Below are positions 6,001 to 9,000 of a stretch of DNA of 64,000 bases, piece by piece. The number at the start of each line of letters is the position of its first letter. The first letter of the stretch is position 1. Location of the stretch: the NCBI RefSeq assembly GCF_055900595.2, contig NZ_CM148325.1, one strand, 5' to 3'. The position numbers were made by a program.

Positions 6001-9000
6001 AACTTTTCTGCGATATCTCCAGGTAAGAAGCCAAGATCTTCATCGGCTTGCAGAACTGGACGGGTGACGATAATCCTGTCGACATCCTTATGTATCAGGG
6101 CCTCTGCCGCTTTTGCTGCGCTGATCCAGGTTTTTCCGCACCCGGCTTCGCCGGTGGCGAATATCAGCTGCTTACTCTCAATAGCCTTCAGATAGTGCAA
6201 TTGCGCTTCATTTCGCGCGAGGATGGGCGAGGTATCGCGACTGTCGCGGGCCATACCAATGGCTTCTACGCCGCTCATCTGCACAAGCGAGGTGACCGAT
6301 TCTTCTTCACGCTGCTTATGGCTGCGCGAATCCCGTCTCAGCACACGTTTTGCCTCGCGACGAGCTTTGATCACTGCTTTTTGTCTTCCCATGGAGAGCA
6401 CCTTGAGTTGTTTGTATTCATCACACGCGCCGTTGGCAGCGCGATTATGCGCACGAACATCAGAGGGTTGGCTTCCTTGTAAGCCATAGTTTGCTGTTGG
6501 ATAAAATGCCGAAAAACGGCTACGCACACCGTTTGCGGCGTCGGTAACACGAGTAAAGTGAGGAAGTGAGAAAAATACAGAGTGACGAAGTTGCTACCGG
6601 AGGAGAAATCTCCGCGAGTGGTGGAGCGTTGCTTAACAAAACATTGTCCAGTACAGGACGTTACCATCCGCGATCTCCATAGTGACTGACTATCACTGCC
6701 GGGAACTTCCGCTGCTACTTAATAATTACAACAGATCTCGCATTCATTGCAACAATATATTCACTTATATTTAACTATAAAACACCATTTCAGTGACATT
6801 AGTTTCTACTGGAAAGATGACAGAGTGATGACAGTGATGAAAAAAGCTGTGTGCTTTCAGCAGGATTCGCATAAGGCATCAACGCACGAACGCCGGATGC
6901 GGCGTGAACGCCTTATCCTGCCTACCAAACCCGCACCGATTGTAGGCATGATAAGACGCGCAAGCGTCGCATCAGGCATCAGCGCATTACCGCCGGATGC
7001 GGCGTGAACGCCTTATCCTGCCTACCGAACCCGCACCGATTGTAGGCATGATAAGACGCGCAAACGTCGCATCAGGCATCAGCGCACGAACGCCGGATGC
7101 GGCGTAAATGCCTTATCCGCCTCTAAAAATTAAACTCGCAATAATGCGCTTCCAAGATAATCGCTCGCGTCCTTCACCCCCGGCAGCGCAAAAAAATAAC
7201 CGCCGCCGATGGGTTTAACGTATTCCTCCAGCGCTTCACCATTGAGCCTTTTTTGTACTGTCAGGAAGCCCTTTTCCAGATCGTGTTGGTAGCAGACAAA
7301 CAGCAACCCCATATCCAGTTGCCCGGAGTTGGTAACACCCAACGAATAACTGTAGCCACGACGCAGCATCAGGCTGGACTCGCTCTCCGCCGTGCGGGGA
7401 TTCGCCAGCCGGATATGGCTGTCCAGCGCGATCACCTTCCCCTCCGGATCGCTGGCGTAATCAGGCACATCATGCTCATGCTGCATTCCCAGCGGCGCGC
7501 CGGTTTGTTTGTCGCGACCAAAAATTGTCTGCTGTTCTTTCAGCGGCGTTCTGTCCCAAAATTCCACTCGAAACTGAATCAAACGCACCGCCTGGTAGCT
7601 GCCGCCGATAGCCCACGCAGGCTCCTGCTGATCTGCCGTCACCCACACTACTTTTTGCATCAATTTCGCATTTTGGCTGTCAGGATTAGCAGTGCCGTCT
7701 TTGAAGCCCAGCAAATTAATCGGCGTCTCTTTGCCTTTACTACGCGCTGCGTGGTCGGAAATAAACCCTTCCCGCTTCCAGCGCACACTGAGCAAATCCG
7801 GCGTGTGTTTGATGATATCGCGCAGTGCATGGATCACCGTGTCCTGGGTATTGGCGCAAATCTGTAGCAACACATCACCATGACATAACGCCGCATCAAG
7901 CGAGTCGTTAGGGAAACGTGTCATCTTCTGCAACTTTTTCGGCATCTGCTGCGCAAGGCCAAAACGCTCATCAAACAATGAGTGGCCCACCGATAACGTG
8001 ATGGTGAGATTATCGGGCGCAATGTAGCCGCCAAGAATGCCGGAATCGCGTGGCGGCAGGCGTGGATTTGACGTTTCTGGTGCCGCTCCGCCCTGAGTCA
8101 GAAAAGCAAAACGCTGAGTCAACAAGCGAAACAATCGCTCAAGATCAGCTTTATCGCTGGCAAGCACATCAAACGCCACCAGCATCATTGCGGCCTGCTG
8201 CGGCGTCAGAATACCCGCCTGATGTTCGCCATAAAACGGCTGCGCTTCACTGCGCGCATCCGGTGAAAGCGTCCCCGGCGCACTTAGTGGTTTTTGCGCA
8301 TGCGCTACCGGGCAACTTCCCGCCAGTGCCAGCGCGCCAATCCCTTTCAGTAAACGTCGGCGTGACGGTTCATTCACGCCGTTTTCATCTTCATACTGCA
8401 TAACGCTTAATCCAGCCCCAGCACACCGCGAAGTTGCGCCAGATCTTCCGCTAGCGCAGTAATCGGCCCTTTCAGCGCATTACGATCGGCATCGGTCAAT
8501 TTGTCGTAGGTTTCAAAACCGTCTTTGGTACGGTATTTCGCCAGAATGGTATCGACCTTTTTGAAGTTAGCATCGACTTTTGCCAGCAGTTCCGGGTTGG
8601 CTTTTTGTAGTTGTGGACGCAGCAGATCGACAATTTTCTGCGAGCCTTCAACGTTAGCCTGGAAGTCCCACAGATCGGTGTGGCTGTAGCGATCTTCTTC
8701 ACCGCTGATTTTGCTGGCTGCCACTTCCTCAATCAGTCCGGCTGCGCCGCCGACCACTTTTGAAGGTGGGAAAGCCAGTTCACTGATGCGTTTTTGCAAA
8801 TCGACCACATCGGTATAAAGCTGGTCAGCATACTGATCCATTCCTTTGGTGGTATTGTCGCCAAACAAGGCTTTTTCCAGACGGTGGAAACCGGTGAATT
8901 TCGGATCGGCGGCTTTTTGCTCGTAATCATCTTCACGGGCGTCAATGCTACCATCCAGATCAGAGAACAGCTCAGCAATCGGTTCGATGCGCTCATAGTG

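What the first reader, a model, noticed from the sequence alone, without database searches (positions are those of the whole stretch)
6392..6667. Frame discontinuity at the 5' end of phoH
The ATPase frame is open upstream only to a GTG at 6527 and has a TAG at about 6597. A separate ATG at 6667 (about 150 bp downstream of the Pho box) opens a 98-codon ORF in a different frame that overlaps it. The span 6667..5604 is 1064 nt, one short of the 1065 nt needed for the 354-codon PhoH I recall from K-12. This suggests either a 1-nt indel relative to K-12 in roughly 6527..6596, or that the real protein is the conserved 262-aa form starting at ATG 6392 with an upstream leader ORF.
Basis: partly seen in the sequence, partly recalled or inferred. 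Interest (0 to 1): 0.4.

Follow-up and report, generated by a model that had tools for sequence, protein, structure and literature searches.

The report
Frame-shifted translated leader of phoH
The break in the reading frame is a real, common E. coli allele: the conserved PhoH protein starts at ATG 6392, and upstream lies a structured leader whose reading frame is kept open in all enteric bacteria while its peptide drifts freely, sometimes fused to PhoH (K-12) and sometimes, as here, a separate overlapping upstream ORF.

Summary
On the minus strand the PhoH frame is open only to GTG 6527, with TAG at 6596-6594. ATG 6667 opens a 98-codon ORF in another frame, ending at TGA 6373-6371. K-12 has one more base just after the T-run 6575-6571, which gives its 354-aa ORF. 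About 36% of 5,417 complete E. coli genomes carry the window allele and 64% the K-12 allele.

Across 79 Enterobacteriaceae leaders the GGAG+ATG equivalent to 6667 is conserved. The ORF it opens has no stop before the phoH start region. It is either in frame (352-356 aa) or in one particular other frame, ending 19 nt past or 26 nt before the phoH ATG.

The leader peptide shows no protein-level constraint: dN/dS is 0.3-1.4 and there is no codon periodicity. PhoH itself has dN/dS of 0.02-0.06. At least four leader hairpins show covariation, and no Rfam family matches.

Best reading: a translated, structured cis-regulatory leader. The 262-aa protein is the conserved product, and the 354-aa form is a lineage-variable fusion. 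The mechanism is inferred, not shown: ribosome delivery to the phoH start, or shielding of the leader RNA.

The parts
6816..6833 (-). Pho box (PhoB binding site) of promoter P1
   Evidence: The sequence TGTCATCACTCTGTCATC is identical to the PhoB ChIP-seq motif instance listed for phoH at K-12 1084845 in PMC10294691.
6720..6775 (-). ArcA direct-repeat region overlapping the constitutive promoter P2. Its position is inferred. It lies upstream of ATG 6667, so both mRNAs should carry the whole leader.
   Evidence: Three GTTxxxxxxxx repeats at 11-bp spacing plus a fourth 22 bp further on match the 60-bp ArcA-P footprint that 'overlaps P2 at phoH' in PMC3798270. The -35/-10-like elements are TTGCAA 6752-6747 and TAATTA 6728-6723.
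6675..6678 (-). Shine-Dalgarno GGAG of the leader ORF, 7 nt before ATG 6667
   Evidence: GGAGAT is invariant in 40/40 aligned Enterobacteriaceae leaders. The SD-ATG motif was found in 79 of the 82 leaders scanned.
6371..6667 (-). Leader ORF: 98 codons plus TGA. It overlaps the phoH start by 22 nt and reads in the -1 frame relative to phoH.
   Evidence: The homologous frame has 0 stops in 74 of 79 leaders; the other five have one stop at -26. The other two frames carry 0-11 stops.
6548..6645 (-). Hypervariable C/T-rich patch of the leader, the segment that differs between the two E. coli alleles
   Evidence: 24/98 mismatches against K-12, with 0/77 and 0/97 in the flanking leader and pS = 0.054 in the phoH body. 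C is 37% and G 13% over 78 nt.
6570..6575 (-). Site of the 1-nt deletion relative to K-12: the T5 run 6575-6571, with the missing base before 6570
   Evidence: Single gap at column 331 of alignment A1 and column 171 of A2.
6646..6659 (-). Hairpin H2: GUCC-N6-GGAC, 8-21 nt after the leader AUG
   Evidence: The stem is kept in 39-40 of 40 sequences while the loop varies freely. There is one compensatory change (GCCC/GGGC).
6596..6617 (-). Hairpin H3: CGCGGAG...CUCCGG
   Evidence: Three of its 6 pairs show changes on both sides (for example CGGAAGC/GCUUCCG in Klebsiella and GGGG/CCCC in Phytobacter).
6587..6587 (-). Position equivalent to the RNA 3' end that Term-seq mapped in K-12 at 1085072, 9 nt 3' of H3
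   Evidence: Supplementary files 1 and 3 of PMC7815308 list 1085072(+) as 'internal', 80 nt from the annotated start, in two data sets. The mapping to the window is by alignment, with no indel before it.
6505..6542 (-). Nested hairpin H5/H6. The T-run 6516-6512 in its internal loop is the site of the frame-shifting 1-nt deletion seen in E. albertii, Citrobacter and Salmonella.
   Evidence: All 7 pairs of H5 and 2 of the 4 pairs of H6 show changes on both sides.
6470..6485 (-). Hairpin H7: GGCUU-ACAAGG-AAGCC. Its stem is invariant.
   Evidence: All five stem pairs are unchanged in 40/40 sequences. Because the stem does not vary, there is no covariation evidence for or against it.
6426..6443 (-). 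Hairpin H10: CGCGCUG-N4-CGGCGCG, 34-51 nt before the phoH AUG
   Evidence: Four of its 7 pairs show changes on both sides. Loop-length changes are multiples of 3.
6399..6404 (-). Shine-Dalgarno AAGGUG of phoH
   Evidence: AAGGTG is invariant in 40/40 and lies 6 nt before ATG 6392.
5604..6392 (-). phoH coding sequence: 262 aa plus TAA
   Evidence: NF007827: 512 bits against a cut-off of 380; residues 9-261. One search gives the Pfam PhoH domain. The protein is 93-100% identical across 80 species.

Best explanation
What is shown. This E. coli carries the minority natural allele of the phoH 5' region, which is 1 nt shorter than K-12 next to the T-run 6575-6571. The conserved protein is the 262-aa PhoH ATPase from ATG 6392. 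The 275 nt between ATG 6667 and ATG 6392 are a leader that has a conserved Shine-Dalgarno sequence and start codon. Its reading frame has been kept open throughout the Enterobacteriaceae while the encoded peptide evolves as if neutral. The RNA carries at least four hairpins maintained by compensatory changes. The leader ORF occurs in two interchangeable configurations. In one it is fused in frame to phoH, as in K-12 and most genera, giving the annotated 354-aa form. In the other it is in the -1 frame, as in this window, other E. coli, E. albertii, Citrobacter and Salmonella, giving a 97-98-codon upstream ORF that stops 19 nt inside phoH. In Kluyvera-type leaders it has 84 codons and stops 26 nt before phoH.

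What is inferred. The act of translating the leader is what selection preserves, not its product. I put about 40% on this specific mechanism. Ribosomes that start at AUG 6667 cover the long C-rich, G-poor leader and carry on to the phoH ribosome-binding site. That would protect the transcript from premature termination or decay, and would feed or unmask initiation at AUG 6392, by read-through when in frame or by termination and re-initiation when out of frame. The hairpins would set how often this happens.
For: 1. Allele frequency and identity.
2. The conserved product starts at 6392. PGAP annotates it so. NF007827 and PF02562 do not cover the extension. All 80 tblastn matches begin at residue 1 of the short form.
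3. SD+ATG were found in 79 of the 82 leaders scanned, and the frame is open in all 79. P(open) is about 0.02 per lineage under shuffled composition, with summed log10 P = -33.9 over 21 clade representatives.
4. Indels in the leader: at least 12 are multiples of 3. Five distinct frame-changing sites (six events if two genera sharing one site are counted apart) all land in the same alternative frame, the one that stays open. None lands in the third frame.
5. No protein-level constraint. Mean pairwise difference by codon position is .36/.37/.38 and .29/.26/.29 in the extension, against .05/.02/.37 in the body. dN/dS is 0.3-1.4 against 0.02-0.06. Synonymous change is depressed in codons 46-92, which points to constraint at the nucleotide level.
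6. RNA structure. 96.5% of cells are paired. 98 cells show changes on both sides, against 37 +/- 5 in shuffles (0/500) and 17-31 for slid partners.
7. In K-12, Ribo-RET detected an in-frame internal start in phoH with locally raised synonymous-site conservation (10.1101/520783).
8. Term-seq found an RNA 3' end 80 nt into the leader, just after hairpin H3 and before the C-rich patch.
Against: There is no direct evidence here that AUG 6667 is used in a window-type strain, and none that leader translation affects phoH expression. The 3' end in K-12 carries no Rho score and could come from processing. The whole-leader fold is no more stable than shuffled sequence (z = -0.57 and -0.15). The long-range pairings that would mask the phoH Shine-Dalgarno sequence or start codon have no covariation support. 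In-frame fusion is the commoner state (52 of 79), which would also fit a sequence-independent role for an N-terminal tail. From memory only, since the paper could not be retrieved: Kim et al. 1993 reported that the N-terminal sequence of overproduced K-12 PhoH matched the deduced 354-aa ORF. So the long form can be made.
Confidence: 0.6

Rival explanations
1. The 354-aa protein is the true functional PhoH. Its N-terminal 92 residues would be a fast-evolving, probably disordered tail. The window allele would then be a partial loss-of-function frameshift, rescued by the internal start at 6392.
For: The in-frame configuration is found in 52 of 79 leaders, is probably ancestral for the family, and keeps a stable length of 90-94 codons. 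It is the curated K-12 annotation. Indels are mostly multiples of 3.
Against: dN/dS is around 1 and there is no codon periodicity, even between congeneric species. The conserved 'peptide motifs' coincide with RNA stems whose compensatory changes alter the amino acids. Whole genera (Salmonella, Citrobacter) and 36% of E. coli lack the fusion. After the frame change the upstream ORF still has no premature stop in 27 of 27 out-of-frame leaders, which decay of a lost domain does not predict.
Confidence: 0.17
2. The leader is an untranslated structured 5' UTR. On this view AUG 6667 is not used, and the open frame is a by-product of base composition and RNA-structure constraints.
For: The patch is pyrimidine-rich, which lowers stop-codon frequency. 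Several hairpins are under selection. PGAP annotates no gene here.
Against: Composition-matched shuffles leave the frame open only about 2% of the time per lineage. The other two frames of the same sequences carry 0-11 stops. GGAG at 7-nt spacing plus ATG is invariant. Indel lengths respect the frame.
Confidence: 0.08
3. Programmed ribosomal frameshifting at a T-run restores a long PhoH isoform in out-of-frame strains.
For: Two of the frame-changing indels sit at T-runs (6575-6571 here; the T-run in the H5/H6 loop elsewhere), and hairpins lie downstream.
Against: The frame changes lie at five different positions in different lineages. There is no shared slippery heptamer and no conserved spacing to a stimulatory structure. 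The peptide that would be restored is not conserved.
Confidence: 0.03
4. The leader is a binding platform for a trans-acting regulator that controls both start sites. CsrA is one candidate, given six conserved GGA motifs including the ACAAGG loop of H7. An sRNA or PhoH itself are others. The open frame would be secondary.
For: GGA is conserved at the leader SD, in H2, in H3, in the H7 loop (its stem is invariant in 40/40) and directly after the phoH AUG. The H7 loop region resembles the CsrA SELEX consensus RUACARGGAUGU (from memory). pgaABCD, a classic CsrA target, is the neighbouring operon.
Against: phoH does not occur in any of the 13 held supplementary tables of the E. coli CsrA CLIP-seq / RNA-seq / Ribo-seq study. 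However, phoH is poorly expressed in phosphate-replete medium. No paper in the library links phoH to CsrA regulation. This idea does not explain why the frame is maintained.
Confidence: 0.1
5. Sequencing or assembly error in a homopolymer.
For: The gap is adjacent to a T5 run.
Against: The same length variant, within a distinct haplotype that differs at 24 of 98 neighbouring positions, occurs in 1,964 independent complete genomes. Five of five sampled genomes have the same ORF structure.
Confidence: 0.01

Closest known systems
E. coli K-12 phoH (b1020, NP_415539, annotated as 354 aa; Kim et al. 1993, J Bacteriol 175:1316)
   Same: The locus is the same (efeB-phoH-pgaD), as are the Pho box, the SD+ATG of the upstream start, the last 140 nt of the leader (identical) and the ATPase body (2 amino-acid differences).
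   Different: The window is 1 nt shorter after the T-run 6575-6571 and differs at 24 of 98 positions in the variable patch. The upstream ATG therefore opens a separate 98-codon ORF instead of an N-terminal extension.
In-frame internal initiation sites giving N-terminal proteoforms (Ribo-RET, Meydan et al., 10.1101/520783; phoH is listed among genes with a conserved in-frame iTIS)
   Same: There are two start codons on one mRNA, each with its own Shine-Dalgarno sequence. The downstream one (6392) is the conserved PhoH start, and synonymous-site conservation is raised around it.
   Different: In this allele the two starts are not in the same frame, so no proteoform pair can arise. The upstream product shares nothing with PhoH.
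Translationally coupled upstream ORFs that overlap or abut the main start, for example uof-fur in E. coli (Vecerek, Moll and Blasi 2007; recalled from memory)
   Same: An SD-led upstream ORF ends at the ribosome-binding region of the main gene. What matters there is its translation rather than its peptide.
   Different: The phoH leader ORF is about three times longer (84-98 codons). It is fused in frame to the main gene in most lineages. It has no experimental test of coupling.
Leader translation that protects long 5' leaders from Rho-dependent termination (mgtL-mgtA, tnaC-tnaA; CsrA/Rho control of the neighbouring pgaA leader; recalled from memory)
   Same: There is a long leader with a C-rich, G-poor stretch, a translated leader ORF, and an RNA 3' end mapped inside the leader in K-12.
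   Different: No Rho dependence has been shown for phoH. There are no sensing codons or arrest motif, and the leader ORF spans the whole leader rather than a short segment.

Membership tests
PhoH, phosphate starvation-inducible ATPase (NCBIfam NF007827 equivalog; Pfam PF02562) | Full-length match to the equivalog model above its curated cut-off | tested here: met
   The 262-aa product of 6392..5607 scores 512 bits against a cut-off of 380, with residues 9-261 on model positions 1-253. The Pfam PhoH domain was scanned on the K-12 354-aa form, where it matches residues 149-353.
PhoH, phosphate starvation-inducible ATPase (NCBIfam NF007827 equivalog; Pfam PF02562) | Pho-regulon promoter with a PhoB box upstream | tested here: met
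   TGTCATCACTCTGTCATC at 6833-6816 is identical to the ChIP-seq-supported site in K-12.
354-aa PhoH as annotated in K-12 (upstream start in frame) | Uninterrupted frame from the upstream ATG to the PhoH stop | tested here: not met
   ATG 6667 is 275 nt from ATG 6392, not 276. The PhoH frame has TAG at 6596-6594.
Regulatory upstream/leader ORF with translational coupling | Shine-Dalgarno sequence and start codon upstream of the main gene, conserved in relatives | tested here: met
   GGAG-N7-ATG. GGAGAT and ATG are invariant in 40/40 and were found in 79 of the 82 leaders scanned.
Regulatory upstream/leader ORF with translational coupling | Open frame maintained by selection and ending at or near the main start | tested here: met
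   No premature stops in 79 of 79. The ORF ends at +19 or -26 relative to the phoH ATG, or continues in frame.
Regulatory upstream/leader ORF with translational coupling | Peptide sequence dispensable (no purifying selection on the product) | tested here: met
   dN/dS is 0.3-1.4, and variability is equal at the three codon positions.
Regulatory upstream/leader ORF with translational coupling | The ORF is translated in vivo, and its translation changes expression of the downstream gene | not testable with these tools
   This needs ribosome profiling and reporter fusions. The held literature shows only an internal start in K-12 phoH.
Programmed ribosomal frameshift site | Conserved slippery sequence with a stimulatory element at fixed spacing | tested here: not met
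   Frame changes lie at five different alignment positions in different lineages, with no shared motif.
Any curated RNA family (Rfam 15), such as a riboswitch, leader or thermometer | Covariance-model match in 6392-6722 | tested here: not met
   An E-value-threshold scan of 5400-7300 gave no match inside the leader. The only hits were Ysr251 within the coding region and REP-like naRNA4 upstream.
Intrinsic-terminator attenuator | G+C-rich hairpin followed by a U-tract in the leader | tested here: not met
   The consensus scan found none on the minus strand in 6392-6700. The T-run after H6 is not conserved outside Escherichia.
CsrA-regulated leader | Several GGA motifs, at least one in a hairpin loop and one at the Shine-Dalgarno sequence | tested here: inconclusive
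   Six conserved GGA motifs, including the H7 loop and the leader SD. Motif presence alone is weak evidence.
CsrA-regulated leader | CsrA binding or CsrA-dependent expression | tested here: not met
   phoH is absent from the held CLIP-seq / RNA-seq / Ribo-seq tables of PMC5694010. There is a caveat: expression is low in the media used.

The most novel reading that the evidence does not exclude
The phoH leader may be an undescribed kind of cis-regulatory element: a roughly 275-nt, hairpin-studded leader that has to be translated from end to end. Its ORF toggles, by +/-1 slippage at short T-runs, between an in-frame N-terminal extension of PhoH and an overlapping upstream ORF. The two states would coexist as an old, possibly balanced polymorphism within E. 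coli (36% : 64%). The haplotypes differ at 24.5% of patch positions, and parts of them are shared with other Escherichia lineages. The two states would set different ratios or amounts of PhoH isoforms.
Probability: 0.3. Interest if true: 0.65.

Novelty: new variant of a known kind. Interest (0 to 1): 0.5.

Why it matters
First, it settles an annotation conflict for a classic Pho-regulon gene. The 354 aa in the curated K-12 record (and, as I recall, in UniProt) and the 262 aa in PGAP are not simply two guesses at one start. The 262-aa protein is the conserved product. The extra 92 residues are a leader ORF that happens to be fused in K-12, and more than a third of E. coli cannot make that form.

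Second, it identifies a strongly conserved leader that no paper in the searched library describes. Some 16-nt stretches and four or more hairpins are better conserved than the synonymous sites of the gene itself. This sits in front of a gene whose function is still unknown, and it offers a handle on when and how PhoH is made.

Third, it is a clean natural example in which selection keeps a reading frame open but not the peptide, and in which the same ORF serves as either a protein extension or an upstream ORF. Both start-site prediction and the interpretation of 'N-terminal proteoforms' need to allow for that.

Tried and rejected
- Rfam scan at the E-value threshold: nothing in the leader.
- Sigma-70 and terminator consensus scans: no terminator-like site in the leader. 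One promoter-like site upstream lies near the inferred P2 region.
- Whole-leader thermodynamic stability: not different from shuffles (z = -0.57 for the window, -0.15 for K-12). Only the local hairpins are supported.
- Long-range pairings proposed by RNAalifold or the MFE fold: GAUCGC 6675-6670 with GUGAUC 6374-6369; CACY 6584-6581 with the phoH SD GGUG 6402-6399; and the leader SD with the phoH start (CUAUGGAGA: UCUCCAUGG). All rest on invariant or one-sided changes. The last is complementary only in Escherichia. I do not rely on any of them.
- A hairpin just upstream of the leader SD (AGUGA/UCACU): no significant covariation.
- A small protein in the alternative frame starting at ATG 6484 (MAYKEANP...): rejected. 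There is no codon periodicity in any frame, and the frame is closed at -26 in many genera.
- CsrA: phoH is absent from the E. coli CLIP / Ribo-seq tables. The Salmonella tables list only phoL/ybeZ.
- An RNase E-type cleavage motif at the K-12 3' end: withdrawn after I recounted the Term-seq string. The 3' end is at base 51 of 61, that is 9 nt after H3, and the sequence there is not RNase E-like.
- Literature: Kim et al. 1993 could not be retrieved. There was no phoH entry in the tetracycline-profiling or ribosome-signature start-site supplements, and no paper linked phoH with uORF, leader peptide or coupling. The Ribo-RET supplementary tables are not held.
- GTG 6527 as a start: not conserved outside a few Escherichia sequences, and it has no Shine-Dalgarno sequence.
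Full report
**1. The observation**

On the minus strand the sequence is exactly as described.
- The PhoH ATPase frame is open from GTG 6527 to TAA 5606-5604, with an in-frame TAG at 6596-6594 upstream.
- ATG 6392, preceded by AAGGTG, starts the 262-aa protein MGRQKAV....
- ATG 6667, preceded by GGAG at 7-nt spacing, opens a 98-codon ORF in a different frame. It ends at TGA 6373-6371, 19 nt past ATG 6392.
- The Pho box TGTCATCACTCTGTCATC lies at 6833-6816. It is identical to the PhoB ChIP-seq site listed for K-12 phoH (PMC10294691).
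In MG1655, b1020 is 1084992..1086056 = 1065 nt = 354 codons, and the K-12 sequence has an uninterrupted ORF from the homologous ATG.

**2. Comparison with K-12 and the E. coli population**

The window is 100% identical over 1,351 nt to E. coli Z0117EC0005 and 96.5% identical to K-12 derivatives, which are 1 nt longer.

The difference is concentrated. The first 77 aligned nt and the last 97 nt of the leader are identical. The patch 6645-6548 differs at 24 of 98 positions and carries the single 1-nt gap, next to the T5 run 6575-6571. Synonymous divergence in the phoH body is only 0.054, so the patch is 4-5 times more diverged than neutral sites next door.

A 121-nt query across the patch splits 5,417 complete genomes cleanly:
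- 1,964 genomes (36%) match at 90% identity or more, with the window's length.
- 3,453 genomes (64%) match at 80-82%, with the K-12 length.

All five sampled window-type genomes have the same 98-codon ORF. All five sampled K-12-type genomes have the in-frame ORF. PGAP annotates the 262-aa protein in both kinds. This is therefore a natural dimorphism, not an error and not a private mutation.

**3. Other Enterobacteriaceae**

A scan of one genome per species returned 80 loci whose PhoH is 93-100% identical to the window's. Every match starts at residue 1 of the 262-aa form.

In 79 of the 82 leaders scanned (80 loci plus K-12 and the window), a GGAGAT...ATG homologous to 6678-6665 is present 270-282 nt upstream of the phoH ATG. 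The other three gave no motif match; one of them (C. koseri) has only 149 nt of upstream flank. The ORF this ATG opens takes only two forms.
- **In frame, 52 leaders** (352-356 aa in all): K-12, Enterobacter, Klebsiella, Kosakonia, Buttiauxella, Pluralibacter, Phytobacter, Yokenella, Trabulsiella, Cedecea, Lelliottia, Franconibacter and others.
- **One particular other frame, 27 leaders.** It has 97-98 codons ending 19 nt after the phoH ATG in the window, E. albertii, E. whittamii, Citrobacter, Salmonella and one Enterobacter cloacae. It has 84 codons ending 26 nt before the ATG in Kluyvera and Pseudescherichia.

That frame contains no stop across the leader in any of the 79, apart from the terminal one at -26 in five. 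The other two frames carry 0-11 stops. Composition-matched shuffles leave such a frame open about 2% of the time. Treating 21 clade representatives as independent gives a summed log10 P of -33.9.

Indels tell the same story. At least twelve are multiples of three. The frame-changing ones lie at five different alignment positions:
- column 171 (window type);
- column 186 (two genera);
- column 232 (a T-run; Escherichia spp., Citrobacter, Salmonella);
- column 249 (Pseudescherichia);
- column 258 (+2, Kluyvera).

All of them land in the frame that remains open, and none lands in the third frame.

**4. Is the extension a protein domain?**

No protein-level constraint is detectable.

| Region | Mean pairwise difference by codon position | dN/dS |
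|---|---|---|
| Extension, codons 1-45 | .364 / .369 / .377 | 0.41-1.41 |
| Extension, codons 46-92 | .286 / .264 / .287 | 0.30-1.28 |
| PhoH body | .053 / .023 / .372 | 0.02-0.06 |

The high dN/dS holds even between congeneric species.

In codons 46-92 the synonymous rate is well below that of the body, which indicates constraint on the nucleotides themselves. This matches the 'locally enhanced synonymous site conservation' that Meydan et al. reported around an in-frame internal start site in K-12 phoH (10.1101/520783).

The PhoH family models do not reach into the extension, and the 98-aa product matches no NCBIfam family. Differences among window-type E. coli alleles are almost all non-synonymous.

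**5. RNA structure**

I aligned 40 leaders (A2). RNAalifold predicts a set of local hairpins, and the pair counts support them.
- 96.5% of cells are paired.
- 17 pairs have changes on both sides.
- 98 cells have such a change, against 37 +/- 5 in column shuffles (0 of 500 reach the observed value). With slid partners the number is 17-31.

| Hairpin | Window coordinates | Support |
|---|---|---|
| H3 | 6617-6611 / 6601-6596 | covariation |
| H5 | 6542-6536 / 6511-6505 | covariation in all seven pairs |
| H6 | 6531-6528 / 6520-6517 | covariation |
| H10 | 6443-6437 / 6432-6426 | covariation |
| H2 | 6659-6656 / 6649-6646 | stem kept while the loop varies |
| H7 | 6485-6481 / 6474-6470 | stem invariant in 40/40, so untestable |

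The compensatory changes alter the encoded amino acids. For example, RGGSDSG in Enterobacter corresponds to HGSPASG in Klebsiella and QGDLNPG in Phytobacter. The apparent 'peptide motifs' of the extension are therefore RNA stems.

No Rfam family matches. The whole-leader fold is not unusually stable. The long-range helices that would mask either ribosome-binding site lack covariation. I therefore claim only the local hairpins.

**6. Transcripts**

PhoB binds the box at 6833-6816. The ArcA-P footprint at phoH spans 60 bp, covers three direct repeats plus a fourth 22 bp away, and 'overlaps P2' (PMC3798270). The window has exactly that repeat pattern at about 6775-6720. P2 therefore lies upstream of ATG 6667, and both mRNAs should carry the whole leader; this step is inference.

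In K-12, Term-seq found a dominant RNA 3' end at 1085072, 80 nt after the annotated ATG, in two of three data sets (PMC7815308). That corresponds to window 6587. It is 9 nt 3' of hairpin H3, at the edge of the C-rich, G-poor patch (C 35-44%, G 12-18% over 78 nt in every genus). No Rho score is available for it. It fits premature termination or decay within the leader followed by trimming back to H3, but it does not prove that.

**7. Interpretation**

*Shown.* The discontinuity is a real allele. PhoH proper starts at 6392. The upstream ORF is conserved as an open frame with a conserved ribosome-binding site. Its peptide is not constrained. The leader RNA has conserved hairpins. The in-frame and out-of-frame states have arisen repeatedly.

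*Inferred.* Selection acts on translation through the leader. The two frames in which the ORF reaches the phoH start are functionally interchangeable. Translation either shields the long leader from termination or decay, or delivers or unmasks ribosomes at the phoH start, or both. I give about 0.4 to that specific mechanism and about 0.85 to the descriptive part.

The distribution also suggests a history of toggling, again by inference. The family ancestor was in frame. A 1-nt loss in the T-run is shared by Citrobacter, Salmonella, E. albertii and E. whittamii. The K-12-type lineage is back in frame. The window type has a new 1-nt loss at 6571/6570.

**8. Rivals**

- *The long form is a genuine N-terminal domain that this allele has lost.* This is the main rival (0.17). 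It is weakened by dN/dS around 1, by the RNA-level explanation of the conserved segments, and by the continued absence of stops after the frame change.
- *An untranslated structured UTR* (0.08). It does not explain the open frame, the indel lengths or the invariant SD-ATG.
- *Programmed frameshifting* (0.03). It has no conserved site.
- *A CsrA-type protein-binding platform* (0.1). It is suggested only by GGA motifs and is not supported by the CLIP-seq tables.
- *Sequencing error.* Excluded by the population data.

**9. Novelty and verdict**

The annotation difference is known in practice: PGAP gives 262 aa and the curated K-12 record gives 354. An internal start in K-12 phoH has also been reported. 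In the searched library I found no description of the allele dimorphism, of the family-wide maintenance of the leader ORF without peptide constraint, of the two-frame toggling, or of the conserved hairpins.

I file it as a new variant of a known kind, a translated regulatory leader or overlapping upstream ORF. The descriptive evidence is solid, and the mechanism is untested. Interest is 0.5: ordinary as a 'frameshift', but a neat and directly testable case for people who work on bacterial translation control and start-site annotation.

Noticed in passing
window 5609-5802 (+ strand), antisense to the 3' end of phoH: Strong Rfam match to Ysr251 (Yersinia sRNA 251, 'antisense'; 190.8 bits against a gathering score of 100; E = 2e-53). 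It covers the last ~195 nt of the phoH coding sequence on the opposite strand. It may simply reflect the very high conservation of phoH, or a conserved antisense transcript.
   Followed up: no
window 6548-6645: The two E. coli leader haplotypes differ at 24.5% of positions here, against a synonymous divergence of 5.4% in the adjacent gene and 0% in the flanking leader. The window-type patch is nearly identical to that of 'Escherichia sp. E1V33' (3/98). The 3' half of the K-12 patch is nearly identical to 'Escherichia sp. MOD1-EC7003' (3/44). This suggests an old polymorphism shared across species, or introgression with mosaic recombination.
   Followed up: partly
window ~6587 (K-12 1085072): A Term-seq RNA 3' end inside the K-12 phoH leader, 9 nt after the conserved hairpin H3, is listed in two growth conditions in PMC7815308. 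Its origin (Rho termination, processing or a leader-derived small RNA) is unknown.
   Followed up: partly
window 6868-7122 (between efeB and phoH): Tandem REP/BIME-type repeats match Rfam naRNA4 on the minus strand (71.8 and 63 bits against a gathering score of 59.5). Their number differs between strains, and one strain has an IS1397 insertion here.
   Followed up: no
L018, L019, L020, L024, L030, L055, L058, L013 (Enterobacter spp. leaders): In these species two of the three frames are completely free of stops over all 92 leader codons ([0,0,6-10]). The second is the frame that out-of-frame lineages use. That is more than the model strictly requires, and it is unexplained.
   Followed up: no
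window 6701-6722 and homologous positions (A2 columns 21-45): The segment AGCGGTAGTTCCCGGCAGTGAT, just upstream of the leader Shine-Dalgarno sequence, is almost invariant across genera, but its predicted hairpin has no covariation support. It could be the start of the P2 transcript or a protein-binding site.
   Followed up: partly
window 5556-5600 (minus strand), between phoH and the convergent pgaD (5141-5554, +): GCCCGG-GCGAA-CCGGGC followed by TTTGTTTT looks like the phoH intrinsic terminator, placed back to back with the end of pgaD. The consensus scan did not list it.
   Followed up: no
L014 (CACSKA010000011.1, titled 'Chryseobacterium sp. 18061'): This record carries an Enterobacteriaceae-type phoH locus that is 95% identical in protein and has the full leader. 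The assembly is probably mislabelled or contaminated.
   Followed up: no
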